Source of the DNA: Spizellomyces punctatus DAOM BR117
Lineage: Eukaryota
Assembly (NCBI GenBank): GCA_000182565.2
Contig: KQ257453.1
Strand: one strand, 5' to 3'
DNA: 64,000 bases
Positions within the stretch are counted from its first letter, which is position 1. Every line of letters begins with the position of its first letter. Under the pieces are notes generated by a model, which worked only from the letters and a program-made list of their open reading frames with translations, was not told the DNA's origin and did no database searches. The position numbers were made by a program, and so were the translations under genes. Positions 28,983-42,600 of the stretch are shown piece by piece.

Positions 28983-30435
28983 TTACGTAATCTTCTCCGC
29001 CATTATGCGCTGCACCTCATGCCCAACGACGTGGAGAGACGGATTATCCAGCTCTTTGATTAGCGAAAGTATCGCAAATAATATGTTATTCTGCTGTAAA
29101 GGCTAGAGCTAGTTAGTGGACATGCGTTAATGTGCACGACTTTGTTTCCTCACATACCGTCGTCGATTTGCGGCTGTCATCCTCATCTTCTCTACTACTT
29201 TCGGCCACTTGAGCGTCTAATGAAGCGGCGCGTATTCTATCCTTTACTTGACCCAACTAAAAATAAAAAATCCATTAATAAATCATCTCTCGCGAGCTTC
29301 AGTCTGCTAGTAATCTTTACCTCTTCAGCGTGAACCAGCCACGTCGGCCTCCGCTTTTGAACAGCATCAGATGGCCGTATATCACCCTTGTTTTGAGGGT
29401 TCGTCCTTGGAGGCGTAGGAAACCGCTCTTGCTTTGTTGCTGGAGAATGCTGTTTCTGGCCGGCTCCCAGATTTGGAGGAATTCCGCCTGCTCCATATGC
29501 TGAGCTGCTAAATTTCTAAATCGAACGTAATGCTCAGAACATTGTGTAGTCCCCCTATGTTGAAAAGCAGCATACCTCATGTACTGCAGTAGGACTCGTA
29601 AAAACTGATTGGTCATCATCCGTCCGCCGTCGTGGACGGCCGATGCGTCCATCCGGGTTTTGATGGGGCATCCCCACAACCTCCAGTCCAGACCCCCGGA
29701 TATGTTGCTCCTCCCGTTCCCGGGGTTCGTCACGCATCCAGGTAGGAGTCGGAGCTGCTGACGATGGTGATGGCCGAGAAGGGGAAGCTTGAAAAAGACC
29801 AGTTTCAAAAGTGGGTAAAAGGTCACTTGATAAGAAAGCCGATCGAGCTTGCATTCAACTCACCATTGGTGACCGGTCCCATGGCAAGCACCTCCTCCCG
29901 CTCGCGATCTGTTACATCCCGATCGTCCAATTTCCGAAGCTGAGGTAGTAGACGCAGCACCATCTGCCGGTAATCAGGCCGCTGAGCGATCGGATTCTCG
30001 CTCAACCACAAGACACGCAGCTTGGACAGGTTGCGCAAGTGGTACAGCTCTCCAGGATCGGATACATTATTACGGCGAAGATACAATTCTATCAAATTTG
30101 TCAGGTTTCGAAATGGTGCCAGGGAGGTCAAAGAACTTACGCGAATACAAACGTTAGGTCAGATTGTGCAGCGAGTGGAAGTCGTGTCTTACATGCTGCT
30201 TACTTTATGGCCAGTGAAAGAACTTCCAAGTTGACTAGTCGCTGAAGAACTGTTACATCGGTCAAGTTTTGGCCCCACAAGTTCAAATTTCTTATACTCG
30301 CTTGCAACAAACATACAGTCAAAATGACAGAAAGCCAAAGAAACTAGTCGTATTCTGCTTACCTAGATCAGTAATGGTTTTCTTTGAAGCGCCTCTAGCT
30401 CTACCCAAGACCTGTGCTTCCGTTAGCTGCACCAT
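28983..30435 (-). CDS. CFAP410: Cilia- and flagella-associated LRR protein CFAP410 (C21orf2), multi-exon
   Basis: MVQLTEAQVLGRAR, NLNLWGQNLTDV, LIELYLRRNNV, LRVLWLSENP, YRQMVLRLLPQLRKLDD, and C-terminal NILFAILSLIKELD. Confidence 0.88.
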
Positions 30436-31384
30436 ACTGTCGATTATATCGGTTATCTGGAAGAGAAGCAACCACGAGACAAACGCGGCTATGACAAACA
30501 CGGCGGAATGCCCGAAAATCCCAAATCTTGAGGGTTCAGGGATTTAAACGTCTTTAATGGTCGGAGGTTTTTTTTAGTGATCCACGACAGTTAACATCAT
30601 AGCGAATGGGTTCGTAATGGCAATGTATTTTATTTTTCGCTATACTGCGGATGTGTATGTTCGAGGGTGAACGTCACTTTCAAGTGGATAATTTGTCGCG
30701 CCTTTATAGTAAGGTTGGAAATAGCGTCAACATTGGTGCAAAGACTTTCCCATTTAGCAGACGAGGCTTTTGATTTGGACATCTCCGCTATGGCATCGCC
30801 TGCTCATGTCATTCGAAGGACGAAGCAAGGGAAATCACAAGAACAGGTCCCATCAAGAATCAATGTGCCATGACAAGTACCCAGATCAACAAAGATCAAG
30901 CCAGGCTCGATTCTACAAAGGGAATGAATGAACATTTATAGATTTCGCTGGACTACATGGAAAGGACTTGGTAATTGACATTGAAAGTTTCAAATACTCC
31001 CAAATATATTGATCAGCCAAAGGTCATCATGTCATAACCCCACCACCTGTTCTCTATCTCGTTTCTAAGATATTCCAAACACCTAATAGCCCTGAAGGTT
31101 CATGAACGACCATTATCTGGTAATGATGGTCGGGCTACTGATATGTACAGCCGCTTCTGTGCAGAGGTACCACCTCGATTATGTGTCTCATCAATCTGCC
31201 TTCTGTAGCTTTCAGTCATCGACCGGGTCAACGAACAGGTGACAGCGTTTTCCAGCCCGGGTAACAGTACAACACTGTTACTCCCACTGCCTGCCCGACC
31301 GGACCAGCAACAGAATCCAGAGTTTCATATCTCCACTCGCAAGGCTCTTCTGATCAATGTCTAATCTAGATAACGTCCCGACAT

Positions 31385-31969
31385 TCAGTCAGTTTGGAAG
31401 TCACCTTCCCACGTTTCCACAACGCATCTAACTTCAGTAGGCTTATTGTTTTTGAACTTTTCAACAGAATGGTATCGAGCATTGAACTCGTCAAAGATTT
31501 GTTCTCCCATGGTTAAGGCACATCCGTCCGGTTGAAAGTAGGCGCGAAACCCATAGTCTTTTCCCCTCGGAGGCTGAACAATTTGTCCAGGAGTGCTGGA
31601 CCGGTACAGGTGAATGTGATTCTCATGACGTATTCCAAGAATGCAAACGAAGGCGGCGCGAGTTCCATTGGCAATGTTCGGCAACTCGCCCAACAGCCAT
31701 TTGACGTTCGGTCCTATCTGCATACCTTCAATATCTAAGCTAGTATCGTCTACAAGAACGGGCGCATCAGCTGGAAATTGGGAAGCCTTGTATTGAACGA
31801 TTGTAAAAGGGTCGGAGGACACTGGTTCGCGGATATCTATTGTTGTACTTTTGACTTCCATTGGGGATAGATACCGCTGAAATTCCGCTTTTTTATGGGC
31901 ATTTGATGTGTTCACGAGAACAGTCTTCCCTTTTCCCATAACACTGTGCTCACAAGTTGCGACTGTCAT
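31385..31969 (-). CDS. Intronless Ham1/ITPase-family non-canonical NTP pyrophosphatase, divergent
   Basis: NTSNAHKKAEF, IDIREP, YKAS, VLVDDTSLDI, GPNVKWL, GQIVQPPRG; single 194-aa ORF. Confidence 0.8.
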   Translation of the reverse strand: MTVATCEHSVMGKGKTVLVNTSNAHKKAEFQRYLSPMEVKSTTIDIREPVSSDPFTIVQYKASQFPADAPVLVDDTSLDIEGMQIGPNVKWLLGELPNIANGTRAAFVCILGIRHENHIHLYRSSTPGQIVQPPRGKDYGFRAYFQPDGCALTMGEQIFDEFNARYHSVEKFKNNKPTEVRCVVETWEGDFQTD

Positions 31970-32039
31970 CCTGCGGTTGATGCCTGTTGTCTATGCAAGA
32001 GTTCGTCGGTGGGGAATGGCAAGTTGCAAAGCGTGGCTT

Positions 32040-32222: not shown

Positions 32223-35200
32223 ATGGAGTCAAGCCACGCAGAAGATGTCGACTATGGCAGAGTTGTCGCCATCCGAAAAACTGGCGAAGATGCTGGGTAG
32301 GAAGCGCACGCGGAGACATTAATGTTGATTTGCAAAATCGCAACAGTAACTCACTTTCATGGTCTTCAACGACAGATTTATGCGCATCACTCAATCCGAT
32401 TTCACTATCGGAAGGTAAGGACAAAGTTTTCATTATTGCGGCCGTGGCGACTTGCACTGTGTGGGTCCTGACAGTTGTGGCCAAGAAAGAGATTTGAGCT
32501 GCGACATCAAAATTCGCCTCCTCACTGTGAGCAGAGTTCACGCAGTACTACAGGTGGACAAGAAGACTCGCAGAGTATGTTTGCTGGAAAAAAGTCTTCC
32601 ATTTCACGTCCAATAATTGCTCGCGGCCTCACATTACATCCCAGGTGACTGTAACTTGCCGAAGCCCACAGGGTCTTTTGGTGAATAAGGAAACTATAGC
32701 TTTGCAAAGAAAAGTTTTGCTCAAAAATGGGGATGTCATTGACATACAAGGCCGACGATTTCGCTTTGAGAATTCAACTGGTGTCCCATCCACAGGATTT
32801 GCGCATGACTCCCGACAAACAAACAATGCGCTGTCCGGTTCACCCCTTCACATTTTTCCCGCGGAAGAATTGGAATTCCAACGACCATGTGCATCAGTTG
32901 CTACAAAATCTCTTTCTGTGACCAATACCTTGTCGGATGCATCGATATACATTAACGTCAAGACCAATGCTCCAGACCGCTACCGAATCTCCCCAGCTAC
33001 TGGATCCATAGCTCCAGGAGATACTCTCAACATACTGATTTCCTTGCATATACATGAGGGACCTACTGAAAGTGACGTTTCGATGGATAACGTGACGGTT
33101 AAAGGCATCAAGGTGCCGGCGGACTGTGTAGATCTGGGTGGCGAAGATTTGGCAGGAAAGCTACAAGATTTGCTGCAGCGGGCGCAGGAACTGGGGGAAA
33201 GTTCTTCAAAAGCACAATCAGACAGTCTACTGGAGAGGACGTTGAAATGCGTTTATGTTGATCGTGCGACTGATGTGAATGTCGCAGGGACAAGTGGAAC
33301 CCCGTCTGAGGCAAAAGCGCAAGTGGGAAGAAAGGAAACTGCCAATGGGGAGCTAATGGCGTCTAAAAGCATTGCGACTGCTGCTGACGACCCAGCACCA
33401 CGACGGATCGACCGCTCACGTGCCCGCAAAACACTTTCAGCGAGCAGCCTTCCAACTCTCATTAAAACTGGAGCTGCTCGTTCCGTACGCCCTGCAACAA
33501 AATCCACGCTCCAAAATACATCCACATCCACTGATGGGTCTTTTTGGCAGCAAATGGACAAAGTACTAACCGCCACCAATCAGCCAGTCAAGCCGCCTCA
33601 AGCGACGGGCAAGACCAACACTCCAAACTCCCGGCGTCAGGGTGTAGCCGCCGGTGCGAAGAGTGTGCCCGCTAAAGAACAGAGGCGGGGAGCTGCCGGG
33701 GTTACGGCTCCTCGACGCGCCTCAACTTTATTTGGTTACGCGGTGCATCCGTCTTTGAAAGATCTGAGCCTTGCGGACAGTGAGCCCACGCTGAGGAGCA
33801 TAACCAACGCGAAGCCTACTGATCACCCGATCCCTCCCGAAAATAAGTCATGCGATGATAAGCGCAAATCGCCGCCAAGTTCTCCTTCCCACACCGGCGA
33901 CGAACGTGAACCTGCTGATTCAGATACAAGCCTTTCCACAAAAGCAACCACTTCGGACAGCACTCCAAAGCGTCTACCTTCCACCAAGCCGCCCAGCCCT
34001 CTGCCGAAAGCGGTCGATACAGTGGAGCATGCGACGAGTCCGACAGCAAAGGTGTTGACACAATCGCCCACATCTACCGGTGATACACCTCCGAGAAAGA
34101 GTCCAGAAGATGTCCCCGAAGATCAACCGTCAACCTCTCCCTTTGTTCCGATATCGAATCCTCTAATTGTCCTCGAGGGTCAGGCTGCCGAGGAGAACCT
34201 CCAGGACGCTAAGCGGGAAGAGAGCGACAACGTCTCTCTTCTCAACGCAAACCTGTCCCCGGACGAGGTTATTCCCGACGGTACACTTGCGCAGGAGACC
34301 CCCGCTACCGACAGAATCCAGGAGATTGAAGTAGACGACGACGACAAAAATCCATCGTGCTCGCAAGAGACTGATGAGCACGCGAACCAGGCTGACGAGG
34401 GCTCCGCTGCCTTAACTCCTCCGGTAAGCGATCTGCTCACGCCTGGTCGAAGCCTGAGTTCAAAATCGAAAAAGGGCGTTACCTTTGGACCTCCGGTAAG
34501 AACTTTGTCACTTCAAATTCATTTCATTGATACTAATTCTAGTCCTTAAAGCTGTCTCCCGAGGTCTTCGATGAAACTCTTCCGATCAATTCACCCGTAG
34601 TACGGGGCAGGCAAGTGCTGCTCTCAAGGGAAGTCGGAAAGCGGTCCATTCTTAAATCGCAGGAACATTTACGACGGGAAGCGGAAGAGGCGTTGAGAGT
34701 CGCCAGCGAACTCGCCCAAACCAGTGAGTCTGAGCCTGTTCTTCAAGATCCGGGAAAGCATGGAAACACCAGAGAAACTGGTAATGCTGGGGAGGCAGAA
34801 GAGGATAAGAACTCGGATATTGAGAATGGCGATGTGGATACCTTGGCATTCCAATCCATTCCTTCTATTTCAGAAATAGTGGAAAATGATGGTGGAGATG
34901 GGAAAGTGCCGGTCACCTCAGACGCCATTGAGTCGACAAAGCAGAGGGATGGAGAGAATGGAGAGTTTGGCGTTGCTCAAATTGAAACCGAGCCTTCTGC
35001 TGGTGCCGCACACGTCGCCGCGACAGTTTCGGAAAGCAGAAAGAGTAGTAGAAGGAAGAAATCCACTGATAGGATCAAACCTGATGACGTGCAGGAAGGT
35101 AGTGAAACCCTCGCAGTGGAAGCCCAGCCTCCACCATCTAGCCCTGCTGAAAGTGCCGAAGAGCCCTCCGACAATAAGAGACGCGGCCGAAAGCGGGGTT

Positions 35201-38200
35201 CCGCGAAGACCGCGAAGCCAAAGACTGAGCTTAGCGGGACTGAAGGATCCGCGCTGGATATTATCACAGAGCAAGGAGCTCCGTCCATGCCTACTGATGC
35301 CATCGAACTGCCTAAACCGGAGAAGGGTGATCGATTGCCGGCGGTTGTCACCATCACGGAAGACGAGCAGAGCTCCAAAACTGAGATTTCTGTCGCCGAT
35401 GTAACTGATGGAGTTGAGTCTACCACTGAGGACCAGATTGAATTCGAAAAAAGTGGTATACTGGTCACGGACGAGAATATAAGCTCGCGAGCCGAGACCG
35501 AGACTCCCGCAACAGAAGATCCGACAGCTGAATCAGCAGCTGATGTGCAACCAGGTCCATTGACCATTGAAGGAACCCCTAAAGTCAAAAGACGAGGCCG
35601 ACCTCCAAAAGTTACCAAGAGCACGCAAATCGACGTGACTGAGACCCCTGCAACAAAAGATGCGACGATTGAATCACCAAAACCTGTGGATACACCAGCC
35701 GTTGGTGAAAAAGGTCGGGGCAGTAAAAGAAGCCACCCTCCAAAGGTTGTCAACGATACGGAGGAGGATACGAGTGCAGGGGCCGTGCCAGACGATGTCA
35801 TAGTTAAAACTGCGGACATCATAGGTACAGCAGGTCTCGGTGACAACGCTCAGGTCAGAAAGCGAGGCCGGCCACCAAAGGTGACCAGGAATACGACGGA
35901 GGACATAAACTCAGCGTCGAAGGATACGATCGCTGAAGTCCGCATCGAGGCGACGGATGCATCAACCAATGATGAGAAGACTCCAGTTAGAAGGAGAGGT
36001 CGACCTCCCAAGGTTGCCAAAAACACGACAGAGGACATGAATTCACCGGCTGAGGCACCTGCAATTAAAGCTGCGACGGCTGAAGCTCCTGAATCCTTGA
36101 GTAAGTCGACTCTCAATGACAAGACTCAGGTCAGAAAAAGAGGTCGACCTCGAAAGGCTGCCACGGATATGAAGGAGGACACTTGCACCGGAGCTGAAAC
36201 TCGGACCGAAGATGTGACTGATCCATCAGTAAATTCGCCGCAACCACATGCGGAAACTGCTGATGAGCAGCGTGAAGTTGAAGGAAGAGGTCGGACGGAT
36301 AGCCCGCAGGCGACAACACTTGGCCCTCAAGCTGCTCAAGAAGAGACGGCCGCAGCAGAAAGTTCAACCACCGATTCTGTGCTCTCAGCTTCCGTAGAAA
36401 CCCGTAGCGAGCCACCTCAACCAAGAAAGAGTAGAAGAGGCGCTGCGAGAGCGAGAAAGGAGGAGACCACTGATGTGCACTCAGTGGATGCGGTATTAAA
36501 GGATCAGGCACGCTCCACTGAAGTGGTCGTTGAGCAGGAAGGAGATGATGAAACGAAGGGTGAGGCAAAGGGCAATGCCAACATCGAAACGGAACAGAAT
36601 ATGAGCGTGGAGACTGCGAACGCGATGGTACAGGAACTGGAAGTTAAAGATGCTACTGATCAAGTGATTGAACAGCCTAAAGTTGGAAGACGTGGAAGAA
36701 GGAGAAGCATGAACAAAGGAAAGCAGGGTAGCAGTCATACCGACACTGGAACTACTCGAGTTCCAGTAACAGATGAACAGCCTACCGTCCCTACCTCGAC
36801 AGAGACGGTGGCTGAACACGCGGAGGACACAGATAGGAAAGCTGCCAACGCCAAGAGCAAGGAACTCGCAAAAGAGGCGAACCTTGAACCAGTTGTTGAG
36901 ATACCTTCCGTCGAAGACTCTGCTGAGCAACCCGTTGATGCACAAGGTATCGGGAAACGACGTCGAGGCCGGGCCGCCGCAAAGGCCCAGAAGAACAGAG
37001 AGACGAGCAATGACGCAGATCTTGAACACGCATCGATCGAATGCGAAGATCACGAAACCACACCAGCAGACCCAACTGATTCGCAACCGGCACCCAAAGC
37101 TAAGTCGCGGGGAAGGGCGGTTGCAAAAAAGTCCGAAGATGTGAAAAAGGAAGAGGCCAGAAAAGAAGACGTAGAAGCTCTTTCGTTAGAGTCGGGAGAG
37201 TCAGCCCCGCCGTCCACTACGGCAGAAGTTGTTCAGCAAGACACTGAAGTTGAAGGAAAGGTGCGCGGTATGCGCAATGCCAAAGCTAGGCAACCTAAAC
37301 AACAAGAAGCGGTGGAAGCAGAGGCCGCGGACGGGTTGCAGCAAAGCACTGTGGAGTCTGTACCATCCGGCTCCACCACTGAAGATCATCAGCCGGTGGC
37401 TGTTAGACGGAAGAGGGGAAGAGCTGCTTCGAAGGCGAAAACCCTAATGGAAGAGAGCGCAGCAGTTGAAAACTCTACACCCGTCGATACTCATGCAACG
37501 GATGTGACAATCGAGCCAGTGCCGCCGTCCATTGTTCCAGAGGCCGAAGAGAAACCATCCGATGCTAGTGTAAAGGTCCGGACTAGAGCGGGTGGAAAAA
37601 GAACCAAGACCAAGGAAGGCAAGAGCGAGGACAAGACAATCCCAAATGTCGATGATGCTCCAGAATTTGTAGAAGCACAAGCTCCATCTACCCCATCAGA
37701 GATGACCAAAAAGCTTAGAGGTAGACCCGCGGCCAAAACCAAAGCCGCTGTGGAAGACTTCGGCGAGAATAATCCAAGTGAGGACGTTGCAGCGGAAGAG
37801 CCGATGCCAATTCCGACACCTGCCGATGTGGAACCTGAGCGTGCAAGAAGGGGCAGAAGAAGGGCTGCTGCTACAGAGAACAAGGCTGCAAGCGAGCAGG
37901 AGAAAGACCTCAAAGAGAATCCATCAACTCAGGCTGACACTGAAACTCAGCCTGAAGTTGAGGTTAAGGGTAAAGGCAGGGCGGTTACCAGAGCCAGAAA
38001 GGCAATGGAGGAAAGAACAGATGAAAATGCGCTGGCTGAGGCCGAGCCTATAGACCAACCGTCAATAGAACAAACCTCGCGAAAAGGCGGTTTACGACGG
38101 GCAGCTGCAAAGACCAAGACGGACAACAAACAAGTAGCAGAAGCTGATACAAAAGAGGCACCTGTGGATGACGTCCCAGATGGGAAGCGAACGACCAAGG

Positions 38201-38388
38201 GCGTCACCTCGAGAGCAAAGCAGCAAACGAGAGCATCAACCAAGGAAAATCATGACCCAAAAGCTGACACTGAAAGCAACGCGGACAGCAAACCCATATC
38301 AATTCCGACAGAATCTTTTTATGGGGCTGCTGAAGAAAAGAAAGTAACCAGAGCTACTGCGGCAAGACGGAAGAAAGCCGCGAAGTAA
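32223..38388 (+). CDS. Ki-67-like protein (~1961 aa): FHA + MSP + Ki-67/RepoMan PP1-binding motif + long disordered AT-hook/charge-block tail; exons 32223-32296, 32376-32414, 32490-32574, 32645-34495, 34552-38388
   Basis: All four introns are GT-AG and keep frame (5886 nt in total). FHA YGRVVAIRKTGEDAG...FTIGRDLSCDIKIRLLTVSRVHA...LKNGDVIDIQGRRFRFE; MSP INVKTNAPDRYRISPATGSIAPG; spliced KKGVTFGPP|LSPEVFDETLPINSPVVRG. Confidence 0.85.
35575..36180 (+). repeat. Five degenerate ~45-aa coding repeats, four carrying an RGRP AT-hook core
   Basis: KVKRRGRPPKVTKST, SKRSHPPKVVNDTEED, QVRKRGRPPKVTRNTTED, PVRRRGRPPKVAKNTTED, QVRKRGRPRKAATDMKED at roughly 130-145 nt spacing. Confidence 0.8.
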
Positions 38389-38803: not shown

Positions 38804-39253
38804 TCAAATTTCCAACGCCATGATGTCTTCATGAGCCTTTTTCACAAGGGCATCCACCATGGTCACGTCCAACACGCCCTTCTTCACCATCATCTCCAAA
38901 GCTTCCCTATCCCGCTTGAGGGCCACCTGTTGAACACTCTTTATCGTCCCACCCAAGTGAACCACACAAAAGATACATGGTCTGTTCCTAATCTTTGTGA
39001 TAAACGATAAGGCCGCCCACAGCATTTGATACGACTCTCTTGCGCAGCGTATAATGCCCGTTTGCGTGTGAGGCGAGTAGTATTTTACTGTGAAGGACGC
39101 GATCCCTATCCCATAATCTCCAAAGTTGAGTTCTAAGCTGTCTTTGAGAGAATTGTTAATCGTCCCCCCGTTGATCGCAGTGTCCACCGACGGCGGCGTC
39201 GAAGGATCAAAGTGGAGATTGAAGAGGAGGTAGCGGTTCTTTAGGCGGACCAT
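38804..39253 (-). CDS. POP5: RNase P/MRP protein subunit Pop5, intronless
   Basis: MVRLKNRYLLF, NFGDYG, VKYYSPHTQTGIIRCARE, LWAALSFIT, VVHLGGTIKS. Confidence 0.92.
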   Translation of the reverse strand: MVRLKNRYLLFNLHFDPSTPPSVDTAINGGTINNSLKDSLELNFGDYGIGIASFTVKYYSPHTQTGIIRCARESYQMLWAALSFITKIRNRPCIFCVVHLGGTIKSVQQVALKRDREALEMMVKKGVLDVTMVDALVKKAHEDIMALEI

Positions 39254-39624
39254 CCCGAAGATTTCCAGATCTTCCTTCCTTGGCAAAGTCGGCCGTTCGC
39301 AAGTCGCTGCCTGCGAATCGATGAGATCATGTGATTCCTGCTCGGAATGGTTAAATGACTCACCCAAGCAAGCGTCCCGCCAGGTTCCGACTCCCGCAAA
39401 CAGCCAACGCAACGTTTTCCCCATTTCATTTTCGTCATTCCAATTTGGCACGGCCTCAATCTACGACTGGAATTTGGGTTACAAAGCTACATCTTGTCAC
39501 CTTTCCTTCTCTGCGGGAATTTGGGTGAATTGGTTTGGCCTTGTTTCTGGCAAATGGACATTTAAAGACTTGAAGCCTCATTACCAAAAACGAAGACTGT
39601 TATTCCTGTAAACACCAAGGAAAA

Positions 39625-42600
39625 ATGACTTCTGTCGTTGCATTCGCCGCTGGAAAGGTATGTATCGTTGGACCTTGTCTCAGCCTCCGTCAAGCTGAAC
39701 ACTCTTCTTGGACCCTTCTCCCTCGGGTTTCATTGACAGGTGGTCTCGGCCGTCAGCACCGTCAGCGCCTTCTACAGCGAGGTCAACCCAGCTACATTAT
39801 CTGGTGCCATCGATGTCGTAGTGGTACAGCACCCAGATGGCGAACTGGTGTGCTCCCCGTTTCACGTGAGATTTGGCAAGCTCAAGCTTTTGCGGCCCCA
39901 CGATAAGGCGGTCGAGGTTAGCATCAATGGCAGGCCAACCGACCTTCTTATGAAGGTCGGAGAAGCCGGCGAAGCTTTCTTTGTCGTTGAGACGGATAAT
40001 CCGGTTCCCTCTGAATATGCGACTTCGCCAATCCAGCAACCATTGAAGCACGAGGTATGTGATAGGTCGTCAGACATAAACAATCCTTTATTTATGTTCA
40101 TATCTCGTGATTCATTATAGGTGAATGTTGAACCTCTTGACCTAAACGCCACGACTATCCCGGAGACCGCCGCTGCTAACGGCGAACCCATCACACCCAC
40201 TGGTATGCCTCGCTCAAGTACGAGACTGGAACGTAGCGGTGTTCTTAATTCTTTTGCCGTATGTCTTTAGCGAACGGCTATGTCAGTGCCCATGGATCAG
40301 GTACTTGTCAAAGGCTAGGTACTGATTATCAACCGCTTTGATAATTAATGGCTTTGACAGATATTGGTGAGGACGAATACCCAGTCACAGACGCCAGCCA
40401 GGGCGCCACTGCTGGGTCAATCGAGAATAGACAGAATGGAGACAGGCTAAACACGTCAGAGGCTCATGCCAAGCCTGCGTCATCGAAAGCTTCCGCGAAG
40501 GGATCAGAGCTACCCATCGACGCGGACGATGTTGTTCAAGCGTTTCCCCACGATGCTCACCTATTTGGGATTATTCCGGAAAATGAGAAAAGGACATTCA
40601 ACGAGCAAAGGGACTAAAACCAAGACAGGGGATCAACTCCACCCGCAACAGAATGCCCTGCTGAATGGAGCCACTTCTGACAGCAACACGGACACAAGCA
40701 GGCATCTTCGGCGATCATCCAAATCTTCAGGGAAAACAAAAGGATCGGACCGCCCCATTGATGCAGAGGACGTAACACAATCGTTTGCCGCTGATGCCCA
40801 TCTTGTCGGTATGGTGCAGGGGGAAAACGACAAGGACCCGAATCAAGATGGAGTCGTGGAAACAGCTCCATCCGTAGTGGACGAATCTGATCCAGTAGGT
40901 GCCAGTTTGGGGAGCGAGTCTAAGCAAGTGGATATAGAGAGGTCGACGACTGTACATATCAGAACTATTGATGAGATCAATCTGGACGGCTCTATCTTCA
41001 CTTCGCAGGTCGTATCCGTCGAAGCCGAAGAAACTCAAAAGCCCACCAAAGCTGAGCAACCTGCGGAAACTCCTGCGTCTTTGGCCCAAGCAAGCCCACA
41101 GACAGCCGCGGCTCTGCCAGAGATCCTGGTGGAGAGTCATGCTCCCAGCGCATTACCCACACCCAGCTCTGGTAAATCTTCGTTCGAAGGCTTGCTTTTA
41201 TCTGTTTTCAAAATCCGTTTAATCAATTATATTCCATTGTTTATTTAAGTTCTGACCGACGACCCAATGGTTAAGACCGCCAAGAACGTAAACGCCGCTC
41301 TCGGATCACATGTTCCCGTTGTTCCCCTTCACGCACATGTGCTCTCTACATCGAAACTTTCTAAACCGCCGGTGCCGCAAGTGGAACTGGAAAAGCCCAA
41401 ATTGCCCCATTCAAAGTCCCTCCCTTTCGCAGCGGATTCTGGTGAGCTGAAACGTGGCGGCCATAGTCGAGCATCGTCAATGCAGATGATTCAGGAAGTC
41501 TCTGCAGACAATGGTATGCAATGCACCGGTCATGGGATTTGGGAGAGAAATACTCATGTTTGTTGCCCAGGTACTACTGTTATAGTGACTGAGAACGAGG
41601 AAGGCACACAGTATGTCCTTGTTGCGGCACAGTTATTTGACATTAGTTAATCGGATTGATTTGTAGAATGCCGGGAGGTTATATTAAGCGAGCTAATACA
41701 GGCCCCTTAAGTGACACCGAAGTCGAGGTTTGTTCATCCATCCATGCAAGCAACCATCGAATATTTAGACTTCTAAATTCACATGCGCATGCATCATTCA
41801 CTAGTATAAGGACTATGAGGCAGAAAAGAAGGAGCAGAGAAGGCGAGGATGGAGTTGGCGATGGGGCGGCTTGCCCAAAAAGAACGCGGACGATAAGGCG
41901 GATGACGCAGAGACTCCGCTGCGAAGAGATAGAACAAAGAGCGCTGAACCCCTATCATCTATGTCGGTCGATGAAAAAGTCAACAGCTATTTGGCAGGCT
42001 TGCCAAATCGGTCGTTTTCCCCTGACAGGGCAGGATCCCCTGAACTTGTTTCGGAACCTGCTCAATCACCCGAACCTGCTGCTGTACCCCATGAGTCAGA
42101 CCTTGCCAATGGACCCGAGGTGCCTTTGAGCTTTGCTTTTAATGCTGATGTGGACATGGAGATGTCACTTTGTGGATATGACAAAATGCGCTCTGTTCAG
42201 CCAGAGGTAGGGCTGAGGGGGACTATAACAGCTTGGAAAGAGTGTGAGATGCTCATCCCGATCATCTGTCATAGGAAGGGGAAGAGTTATTCCAAAAGAA
42301 TCTCATCACCTTTGAGTCATTCTGTAAAAACCCAGAATTGTTGATGGACCCGAATTTGGTGTTCAGGATCAACGGCAAGTAAGTATCACATCATATCTAT
42401 TCCGCTTCTGATGTGGATCAGATTACAAATGCACTCTTCAGTTACTACAGCTGGGCGATGGCGGGCCCAATGCTCATGGCCAACATAGCGTTCAAGAAAC
42501 CTCTTCCGGAGGACCTTGTACAACGGCTTGCCCAACAGCAGGGACCAGGCCAAGCGACCGCTGACAATCGTCGGTACAGTTTCAACCAATTGAAGTCATG

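What the first reader, a model, noticed from the sequence alone, without database searches (positions are those of the whole stretch)
34468..34608. Intron-split RVxF + KiR-SLiM PP1-docking motif, with an alternative acceptor that would change its spacing
Seen: intron 34496-34551 joins KKGVTFGPP to LSPEVFDETLPINSPVVRG. Known (from memory): RepoMan has RVTFGEDLSPEVFDESLPANTPLRKG and Ki-67 has RVSFGGHLRPELFDENLPPNTPLKRG, an extended PP1 motif considered specific to these two proteins and controlled by mitotic kinases. The spacing matches exactly and S/T-P sites are kept (LSP, NSP). A second in-frame AG at 34541-34542 would insert SLK between the two halves. Inference: alternative 3' splice-site use could tune PP1 binding.
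Basis: partly seen in the sequence, partly recalled or inferred. Interest (0 to 1): 0.75.

Follow-up and report, generated by a model that had tools for sequence, protein, structure and literature searches.

The report
Chytrid Ki-67-like gene's PP1-docking motif
A short intron in a chytrid fungus gene splits a well-conserved docking site for protein phosphatase 1 of the kind known from the human cell-division proteins Ki-67 and RepoMan; the motif is real, but the proposed splicing switch has no supporting evidence.

Summary
The window is Spizellomyces punctatus. The gene at 32223-38388 (+) is SPPG_02950, 1961 aa, and my 5-exon model reproduces it exactly. Intron 4 (34496-34551, 56 nt, phase 0) splits a Pfam PP1_bind domain.

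Evidence that the spliced motif is real:
- It scores 44.5 bits against Pfam PP1_bind (cut-off 27).
- It aligns without gaps to the PP1-bound RepoMan and Ki-67 peptides in the PDB (E 5.9e-8 and 2.8e-4).
- The protein's best PDB match overall is the Ki-67 FHA domain.

The gene is therefore a chytrid member of the published Ki-67/bridgin family. It differs in carrying an extra MSP domain and RGR(P) repeats.

The strict KiR-SLiM pattern is met at only 9 of 14 defined positions. The RVxF is the variant KGVTF.

The splicing idea is not supported, though not refuted:
- The in-frame upstream AG (+SLK) exists but lies 6 nt after the only branch-like CTAAT.
- Such an AG is expected in about 15% of introns by chance.
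- It appears in neither deposited protein model.
- No RNA reads could be laid on the locus, so acceptor use was never measured.

PP1 binding could not be modelled because no PP1 sequence was available. Verdict: a new member of a known kind, of moderate interest.

The parts
32223..38388 (+). Gene SPPG_02950 (1961 aa). Exons 32223-32296, 32376-32414, 32490-32574, 32645-34495 and 34552-38388 (stop included). Introns of 79, 75, 70 and 56 nt.
   Evidence: The spliced translation equals P0001 exactly. P0001 is a 100% hit named SPPG_02950, Spizellomyces punctatus DAOM BR117.
32223..32806 (+). N-terminal FHA domain (residues about 13-120), interrupted by introns 1-3
   Evidence: Pfam FHA 43.3 bits, residues 35-100. 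Best PDB hits of the whole protein are the Ki-67 FHA chains 2aff_A and 1r21_A, E 2.2e-8.
32846..33127 (+). MSP (major sperm protein / VAP-like) domain, residues 134-227
   Evidence: Pfam Motile_Sperm 43.1 bits. PDB MOSPD2 and VAPB chains, E about 1e-8.
34472..34486 (+). RVxF-type motif KGVTF (residues 676-680), at the end of exon 4
   Evidence: It is the only match to [RK]-x(0,1)-[VI]-{P}-[FW] in the 1961 aa. It aligns to RVTF of RepoMan and RVSF of Ki-67.
34496..34551 (+). Intron 4: 56 nt, phase 0, donor GTAAGA, acceptor AAG
   Evidence: The junction is used in P0001 and P0002.
34533..34537 (+). CTAAT, the only CTRAY branch-like site in intron 4 (branch A at 34536)
   Evidence: the distance from this A to the G of the first AG is 6 nt, and to the second AG 15 nt. 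Assigning it as the branch point is inference.
34541..34542 (+). Upstream in-frame AG (TAG); its use would add SLK between KGVTFGPP and LSPEV
   Evidence: No transcript evidence either way.
34547..34549 (+). TAA that would end the protein 17 codons after KGVTFGPP if intron 4 were retained
   Evidence: ORF 32531..34549.
34561..34566 (+). E-V (residues 687-688), aligned with the PhiPhi motif EV of RepoMan and EL of Ki-67
   Evidence: Alignment. PhiPhi residues are named in section 6 of PMC5005033.
34567..34617 (+). KiR-SLiM-like stretch FDETLPINSPVVRGRQV (residues 689-705)
   Evidence: 9 of 14 defined positions of the published pattern are met; the core FD..LP.N[ST]P occurs once in the protein. 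Pfam PP1_bind match.
34418..34428 (+). Second copy of the donor 11-mer CCTCCGGTAAG, 72 nt (in frame) upstream of the real donor copy at 34490-34500
   Evidence: Exactly 2 matches in the 64 kb window against 0.03 expected. See Noticed in passing.
35182..37980 (+). Array of 14 [KR]GR motifs in the disordered tail (residues 894-1826); 5 of them read RGRP (AT-hook-like)
   Evidence: Listed. That RGRP is the AT-hook core is recalled, not tested.

Best explanation
The gene is the Spizellomyces punctatus member of the Ki-67/bridgin family. It has an N-terminal Ki-67-type FHA domain, an inserted MSP domain, a PP1-docking module, and a long acidic disordered tail with RGR(P) repeats and a basic last 150 residues.

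Intron 4 is an ordinary constitutive short intron that happens to lie inside the docking module. Splicing to the AG at 34550-51 produces KGVTF-GPPLSP-EV-FDETLPINSPVVRG. This has the RVxF, PhiPhi and KiR-type elements at the same spacing as in the crystal structures of RepoMan and Ki-67 bound to PP1.

Inferred mechanism: the module recruits the chytrid PP1 catalytic subunit to chromatin or kinetochores at mitotic exit. Phosphorylation of T679 (the x of RVxF), S685 (LSP) and S697 (NSP) by mitotic kinases would block binding earlier in mitosis, as shown for RepoMan and Ki-67.

The upstream AG at 34541-42 is most likely bypassed, or used only as low-level noise.

Shown here: the sequence, the gene model, and the domain and motif homology. 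Inferred: PP1 binding, phospho-regulation, and which acceptor is used in vivo.
For: - Gene model equals P0001 exactly.
- PP1_bind scores 44.5 bits against a cut-off of 27, gapless over profile positions 2-42. Exon 5 alone starts at profile position 11, so positions 1-10 lie in exon 4.
- Gapless alignments to PP1-bound RepoMan (5ioh_B E 5.9e-8, 5inb_B E 2.1e-7) and Ki-67 (5j28_C E 2.8e-4); 18 of 29 and 15 of 29 identical by my count of the printed alignments.
- The best PDB hit of the whole protein is the Ki-67 FHA domain, E 2.2e-8, against CHFR FHA at 1.7e-4.
- Against the sister species, the module is more conserved than its surroundings: a run of 50 invariant residues; 93% identity over residues 655-725 against 68-72% in nearby 50-residue bins and 82.7% overall.
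- KGVTF is the only RVxF-type site in the protein.
- Ki-67 is the published metazoan homologue of fungal bridgin, whose pull-downs recovered PP1 (passages of PMC7794384).
- Acceptor choice: both deposited models use 34551 and each sits in a cluster of 1 member sequence, so no +SLK form is on record there. The upstream AG is 6 nt from the CTAAT A, while the used AGs of the 4 introns lie 13-22 nt from their branch-like sites. AGs under 12-15 nt from a branch point can be bypassed (PMC1431707 passages).
Against: - No RNA evidence of any kind for the junction. The two protein models may share one annotation lineage and are not independent.
- The canonical Arg of RVxF is Gly here.
- 5 of 14 defined KiR-SLiM positions differ: I for P/A, V for L, V for R/K, Q for T/S, V for P. 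The third CDK site is absent.
- With Gly two residues before T679, the basic residue that the aligned RepoMan and Ki-67 sites carry there is missing. That Aurora B needs it is recalled.
- PP1 binding was neither tested nor modelled.
- The same mammalian rules say that AGs under 12 nt apart compete and that the preceding base matters. The upstream site is TAG and the used one AAG, so some use of the upstream AG is mechanistically possible.
- The protein is acidic overall (pI 5.27), unlike basic vertebrate Ki-67.
- Sridhar et al. list no bridgin homologue for this species.
Confidence: 0.7

Rival explanations
1. One reading: both acceptors (34542 and 34551) are used in a regulated way. The +SLK isoform lengthens the RVxF-to-PhiPhi linker from 6 to 9 residues and thereby tunes PP1 affinity.
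For: The upstream AG is in frame and stop-free. The two AGs are 9 nt apart, within the range where closely spaced AGs compete and the preceding base matters (passages of PMC1431707). The upstream AG is preceded by T and the downstream one by A.
Against: - An in-frame, stop-free AG within 12 nt is expected in about 15% of introns by composition alone.
- It lies 6 nt from the only branch-like site, in the bypass zone.
- Neither deposited model nor any cluster member carries SLK.
- The insertion would break the gapless fit to the Pfam profile and to three solved chains.
- Conservation of the AG in the sister species could not be checked.
Confidence: 0.07
2. A different splice switch at the same place. 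Either the twin donor at 34424 is used, which would remove 24 residues including KGVTF while keeping the KiR part, or intron 4 is retained, giving an FHA-MSP-KGVTF protein without the KiR part and tail.
For: The donor 11-mer CCTCCGGTAAG occurs only twice in 64 kb, 72 nt apart and in frame (0.03 expected). Retention meets a stop after 17 codons.
Against: - No RNA data.
- The resulting intron would be 128 nt against 56-79 nt for the gene's four introns.
- The sister species has Asn where this species has Ser, encoded by AGC, just after the upstream GT. Every Asn codon puts A at donor position +5, so the upstream GTAAG is not conserved (inference from the protein).
Confidence: 0.04
3. The motif is conserved by descent but no longer docks PP1 in the chytrid, for example because the Arg of RVxF and several KiR positions are lost. 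It may serve another partner.
For: Gly replaces Arg in RVxF. 5 of 14 KiR positions deviate. Binding is untested.
Against: KGVTF still fits the general RVxF pattern quoted in the 2026 preprint (section 8). The deviating residues are mostly hydrophobic-for-hydrophobic. The 50-residue block is invariant between two species whose flanks have diverged to about 70%, which points to function.
Confidence: 0.1

Closest known systems
Ki-67 (MKI67) of vertebrates
   Same: N-terminal FHA domain that is its best PDB match. A PP1_bind module downstream of the FHA in the same order, with the same RVxF-PhiPhi-KiR spacing. Large size, repeats, and 34 S/T-P sites.
   Different: An MSP domain sits between the FHA and the PP1 module. 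The protein is acidic overall (pI 5.27), with only the last ~150 aa basic. Its repeats are short RGR(P) motifs, not Ki-67 repeats. The RVxF is KGVTF.
RepoMan (CDCA2) PP1-interaction domain, PDB 5ioh and 5inb
   Same: Closest sequence match for the docking module: 36 bits, 18 of 29 identical by my count, gapless. The LSPEVFDE block is identical and the LSP and N[ST]P sites are kept.
   Different: Per Kumar et al., RepoMan shares only this ~40-residue region with Ki-67. The third S/T-P site and the basic residues after the N[ST]P site are not kept here.
Bridgin (Bgi1) of Cryptococcus neoformans and its listed homologues (PMC7794384)
   Same: A fungal FHA-first, largely unstructured protein with a PP1 docking site, an acidic middle and a basic end. 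The authors name Ki-67 as the metazoan homologue and list a homologue in another chytrid, Batrachochytrium.
   Different: Bridgin's PP1 site is described as unconventional and lies right after the FHA domain (aa 161-164). The S. punctatus row of Supplementary Data 4 is blank. I could not fetch a bridgin sequence, so no direct alignment was made.
Tandem (NAGNAG-type) alternative acceptors
   Same: Two in-frame AGs lie 9 nt apart at one 3' splice site.
   Different: Use of both is not shown. The upstream AG lies 6 nt from the branch-like site.

Membership tests
Pfam PP1_bind (PF15276), the Ki-67/RepoMan PP1-interaction domain | Score above the curated gathering cut-off (27 bits) | tested here: met
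   44.5 bits for the 71-residue spliced segment, 36.8 for whole P0001 and 38.9 for P0002. 28 bits for exon 5 alone.
Pfam PP1_bind (PF15276), the Ki-67/RepoMan PP1-interaction domain | RVxF-type motif [RK]-x(0,1)-[VI]-{P}-[FW] | tested here: met
   KGVTF at residue 676 is the only match in the protein. Gly stands where RepoMan and Ki-67 have Arg.
Pfam PP1_bind (PF15276), the Ki-67/RepoMan PP1-interaction domain | PhiPhi motif (EL/EV) at the same distance from RVxF | tested here: met
   E687-V688 align without gaps to EV of RepoMan and EL of Ki-67 (motif residues from section 6 of PMC5005033).
Pfam PP1_bind (PF15276), the Ki-67/RepoMan PP1-interaction domain | Published general KiR-SLiM pattern FDxxLP(P/A)N(T/S)PL(R/K)(R/K)Gx(T/S)P | tested here: not met
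   No regex match in P0001 or P0002. 9 of 14 defined positions are met; the core FD..LP.N[ST]P is present once.
Pfam PP1_bind (PF15276), the Ki-67/RepoMan PP1-interaction domain | Binds PP1 through the RVxF, PhiPhi and KiR pockets | not testable with these tools
   No genome is held for the window and no PPP phosphatase signature occurs in the window. No PP1 chain was therefore available for complex prediction.
Ki-67 / bridgin family | N-terminal FHA domain closer to Ki-67's than to other FHA domains | tested here: met
   Ki-67 FHA chains 2aff_A and 1r21_A at E 2.2e-8 and 2.6e-8. The next FHA protein, CHFR, is at 1.7e-4. No phylogeny was made.
Ki-67 / bridgin family | [quoted passage not shown] | tested here: met
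   FHA at residues 35-100 and PP1_bind at 675-711.
Ki-67 / bridgin family | Basic protein (Ki-67) or basic C-terminal domain (bridgin) | tested here: inconclusive
   Whole protein pI 5.27. Last 300 aa pI 7.02; last 150 aa pI 9.4. Several listed bridgin homologues carry the comment 'Shorter basic region ~150aa'.
Ki-67 / bridgin family | Repeats and many S/T-P sites in a long non-domain region | tested here: met
   15 [KR]GR motifs and 34 S/T-P sites, about 1 per 58 aa. This is inside the 8-128 aa range quoted in the preprint. Disorder itself was not computed.
Ki-67 / bridgin family | Mitotic chromosome-periphery or kinetochore localisation | not testable with these tools
   Needs tagging and imaging.
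Functional tandem alternative acceptor | Both junctions present in transcripts | tested here: inconclusive
   Of 4 runs laid, the one run on record as RNA (X7) gave 0 reads (the tool calls this no test) and a second, only guessed to be RNA (X1), gave none. Two runs of unknown kind (X2, X3) each gave 1 contig; only X2's covers the intron, and it is unspliced.
Functional tandem alternative acceptor | Both AGs conserved in related species | not testable with these tools
   No genomic DNA of a relative could be fetched: both metagenome scans found none.

The most novel reading that the evidence does not exclude
Splice-site choice at intron 4 could be a built-in switch for PP1 docking in an ancient Ki-67-type protein. 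The same 56-nt intron would offer three alternatives to the normal product: a +SLK acceptor that stretches the RVxF-PhiPhi linker; a twin donor 72 nt upstream that deletes KGVTF but keeps the KiR part; and retention that keeps KGVTF but drops the KiR part and the chromatin tail. The cell could then make full, weakened and docking-dead forms.

Separately, and more likely: the complete RVxF-PhiPhi-KiR module predates the split of fungi and animals. It could then be studied in a chytrid.
Probability: 0.08. Interest if true: 0.6.

Novelty: new member of a known kind. Interest (0 to 1): 0.35.

Why it matters
Kumar et al. (2016) presented the KiR-SLiM as used only by Ki-67 and RepoMan, on the basis of a Swiss-Prot search. 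Reviews note that RepoMan has no predicted orthologue in flies or worms (PMC9576876 passages).

A chytrid protein with a Ki-67-type FHA domain, and a docking module 18 of 29 identical to RepoMan's, argues that the whole RVxF-PhiPhi-KiR module dates back at least to the common ancestor of fungi and animals. The RepoMan-like wording of the module may be close to the ancestral one.

This adds S. punctatus to the published fungal Ki-67/bridgin set. The one table that looked at this species left it blank. It also shows an MSP-bearing variant of the architecture.

It does not change the picture of how the module works. The domain call is already attached to the database record: precomputed Pfam hits are listed.

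Tried and rejected
- RNA evidence: no RNA holder was listed for 33600-35600. Of 4 runs laid on 34076-34975, the RNA raw-read run X7 gave 0 reads from about 6% of the run (the tool calls this no test) and X1 gave 0. X2 and X3 gave one contig each, without a joint (X3's stops short of the intron); their kind is unknown and probably DNA. Acceptor use, retention and the twin donor therefore remain unmeasured.
- Homologue collection: 3 of 3 word-index searches (PP1 region, FHA region, 71-residue peptite against longer proteins) returned only P0001 and P0002.
- The all-against-all HMMER search with exon 4 gave 117 hits. Only P0002 is an orthologue. All 21 of the 21 other hits that I scanned with Pfam are MSP-only proteins; 95 were not scanned.
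- Atlas: the PP1 segment's nearest clusters are chordate KI67 fragments with PF15276 (score 0.90, a lead only). Residues 1-730 gave no usable hit.
- Two metagenome scans found no relative. The first used a pattern that spans the intron.
- No genome is held and no phosphatase signature lies in the window, so complex prediction with the species' PP1 was not run.
- A home-made census of introns in the window, meant to calibrate branch-to-AG distances, returned 26 candidates in 14 donor groups. Most were spurious in-frame deletions inside long ORFs, and it was dropped.
- Considered and rejected: that the motif is a chance match, and that the protein is a RepoMan orthologue (it has a Ki-67-type FHA domain).
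Full report
**1. The observation**

- Exon 4 ends at 34495 with KKGVTFGPP.
- The intron runs 34496-34551: GTAAGA...TTAAAG, 56 nt, phase 0.
- Exon 5 opens with LSPEVFDETLPINSPVVRG.
- The AG at 34541-42 is in frame and would add SLK.
- An unspliced message would stop at TAA 34547-49.

**2. The gene**

A search with the start of exon 5 returned a 100% match, P0001. A source names it SPPG_02950 of Spizellomyces punctatus DAOM BR117 (1961 aa). It also returned an 82% match, P0002, from Spizellomyces sp. 'palustris'.

Both proteins read ...KKGVTFGPPLSPEVFDE.... I placed five exons by eye. A script then confirmed that their splice translates exactly to P0001. The exons are 32223-32296, 32376-32414, 32490-32574, 32645-34495 and 34552-38388. 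The intron in question is therefore intron 4 of 4.

The neighbours are ordinary genes: Ham1, Pop5/Rpp14, lipin and an LRR protein.

**3. The motif**

- Pfam finds FHA (43.3 bits), MSP (43.1 bits) and PP1_bind (36.8 bits, cut-off 27) in P0001.
- The 71-residue spliced segment alone scores 44.5 bits, E 1.8e-11. Residues 13-53 lie on profile positions 2-42 without a gap.
- Exon 5 alone begins at profile position 11, so the intron cuts the domain after its tenth position.
- Against the PDB, the segment matches the RepoMan peptides crystallised with PP1 (5ioh_B E 5.9e-8; 5inb_B E 2.1e-7) and the Ki-67 peptide (5j28_C E 2.8e-4). All three are gapless over the motif.

In section 6 of Kumar et al. 2016 (PMC5005033, read whole), the RVxF is RVTF/RVSF, the PhiPhi is EV/EL, and the KiR-SLiM starts at the following Phe. 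Here these are KGVTF, E687-V688 and F689 onward.

The fit is good but not perfect:
- Gly replaces the Arg of RVxF, although KGVTF still fits the general pattern and is the only such site in the protein.
- The strict KiR pattern is met at 9 of 14 defined positions.
- Of the three sites that the paper numbers 400, 412 and 419 in RepoMan, whose phosphorylation by Cdk1 blocks PP1 binding (passages), the first two are kept as LSP and NSP. The third is Q-V.

Between the two Spizellomyces proteins a run of 50 residues around the motif is invariant. Identity is 93% over residues 655-725, against 68-72% in nearby bins and 82.7% overall. This points to selection on the module.

**4. What the protein is**

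The best PDB match of the whole protein is the FHA domain of human Ki-67 (2aff_A, 1r21_A; E about 2e-8). This is well ahead of the next FHA protein, CHFR (1.7e-4). The protein thus matches Ki-67 in both FHA and PP1 module, in the same order.

It also has 34 S/T-P sites and 15 [KR]GR motifs, five of them RGRP. It is acidic overall (pI 5.27), with a basic last 150 residues (pI 9.4).

Two papers cover this ground:
- Sridhar et al. 2021 (PMC7794384; passages and Supplementary Data 4 read whole) describe bridgin. It is a fungal FHA protein with a PP1 docking site, an acidic middle and a basic end. They name Ki-67 as its metazoan homologue and list homologues in many fungi, including Batrachochytrium. 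The Spizellomyces punctatus row has no accession.
- A June 2026 preprint (10.64898/2026.06.18.733134; abstract, sections 7 and 8, and passages) reports Ki-67-like proteins in non-vertebrates, including three fungi. Spizellomyces is not among them, and the preprint scores only the bare RVxF pattern.

The MSP domain between FHA and PP1 module is not mentioned in what I read: 'MSP' occurs 0 times in the preprint's main text. In my searches this architecture appeared only in the two Spizellomyces proteins. That is weak evidence, given the limits of those searches.

**5. The splicing idea**

I could not measure acceptor use.
- No RNA holder was listed.
- The one RNA raw-read run laid gave no reads on the stretch, which the tool calls no test.
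- The only contig laid across the intron is unspliced, from a run of unknown kind.

What can be said from the sequence:
- CTAAT at 34533-37 is the only CTRAY-like site in the intron. The upstream AG ends 6 nt after its A and the annotated AG 15 nt after. The annotated AGs of the gene's four introns lie 13-22 nt from their branch-like sites.
- For mammalian introns, AGs closer than 12-15 nt to the branch point can be bypassed. AGs less than 12 nt apart compete, and the preceding base matters (passages of Gooding et al. 2006, PMC1431707). The first rule argues against the upstream AG. The second leaves room for it, since it is a TAG against an AAG.
- By intron base composition, an in-frame, stop-free AG within 12 nt upstream is expected in about 15% of introns. 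Its presence alone says little.
- The +SLK form would put a three-residue insertion into a module that otherwise fits the family profile and three solved peptides without gaps.
- No such form is among the deposited proteins: both hits are clusters of one member sequence.

I put the chance that +SLK exists at a detectable level at roughly 0.3. I put the chance that it is a regulated tuning device at about 0.07.

**6. A second oddity at the same intron**

The donor 11-mer CCTCCGGTAAG occurs exactly twice in the 64 kb window, at the real donor and 72 nt upstream in frame (0.03 expected). Use of the upstream copy would delete 24 residues including KGVTF.

Against this, the sister species has Asn where this species has the Ser codon AGC. 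Every Asn codon puts A at donor position +5. The resulting intron would also be 128 nt, against 56-79 nt for the others.

**7. Novelty**

Six literature searches turned up no paper that links Ki-67 with Spizellomyces or chytrids, and none that places the KiR-SLiM outside Ki-67 and RepoMan:
- 'KiR-SLiM': 5 papers. I read passages of two (Kumar 2016; a 2023 PPP-evolution review); neither places the KiR-SLiM outside Ki-67 and RepoMan. The other three I saw only as a listing.
- 'Ki-67' + 'Spizellomyces': 0 papers.
- 'PF15276': 0 papers.
- 'Ki-67' + 'chytrid': 4 papers, none relevant by title or abstract.
- Two broader searches.

The domain call is already attached to the database record, and fungal Ki-67/bridgin proteins are published. 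This is therefore a new member of a known kind, with one architectural variation (the MSP domain) and a notably well-kept docking module.

**8. Left open**

- PP1 binding: no PP1 sequence was reachable.
- Acceptor use in vivo.
- Conservation of the intron and of both AGs.
- Localisation of the protein.

Noticed in passing
window 34418-34428 and 34490-34500: The donor 11-mer CCTCCGGTAAG occurs only twice in the 64 kb window, 72 nt apart and in frame (0.03 expected). The upstream copy is a potential cryptic donor that would delete 24 residues including KGVTF. The sister species' Ser-to-Asn change implies its +5 G is not conserved.
   Followed up: partly
window 32846-33127: A VAP/MOSPD2-like MSP domain sits between the FHA domain and the PP1 module. 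This architecture turned up only in the two Spizellomyces proteins in my searches. In the VAPB alignment, the two residues I recall as the FFAT-binding pair (K87, M89; numbering recalled) align to N and T, so canonical FFAT binding is doubtful.
   Followed up: partly
window 35182-37980: There are fourteen [KR]GR motifs spaced through the acidic tail. Three read RGRPPKV, one RGRPRKA and one RGRPAAK. They look like AT-hook-type DNA-binding repeats (the AT-hook core is recalled). They could replace the basic DNA-binding end of Ki-67.
   Followed up: no
window 32415-32489 (intron 2): An AG at 32484-85 lies 4 nt upstream of the annotated acceptor and 14 nt from the CTGAC branch-like A. It is out of frame. 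The annotated acceptor is therefore not the first AG after the branch-like site.
   Followed up: no
P0001 whole: The protein is acidic (pI 5.27), with only the last ~150 residues basic (pI 9.4). This may be why an architecture filter for a basic C-terminus left the S. punctatus row blank in Supplementary Data 4 of the bridgin paper.
   Followed up: partly
   Followed up: no
window 29823-31990 and 38804-40120: The flanking genes are housekeeping types: an LRR protein, a Ham1-family NTP pyrophosphatase, the Pop5/Rpp14 RNase P subunit and lipin. There is no functional link to the finding.
   Followed up: yes
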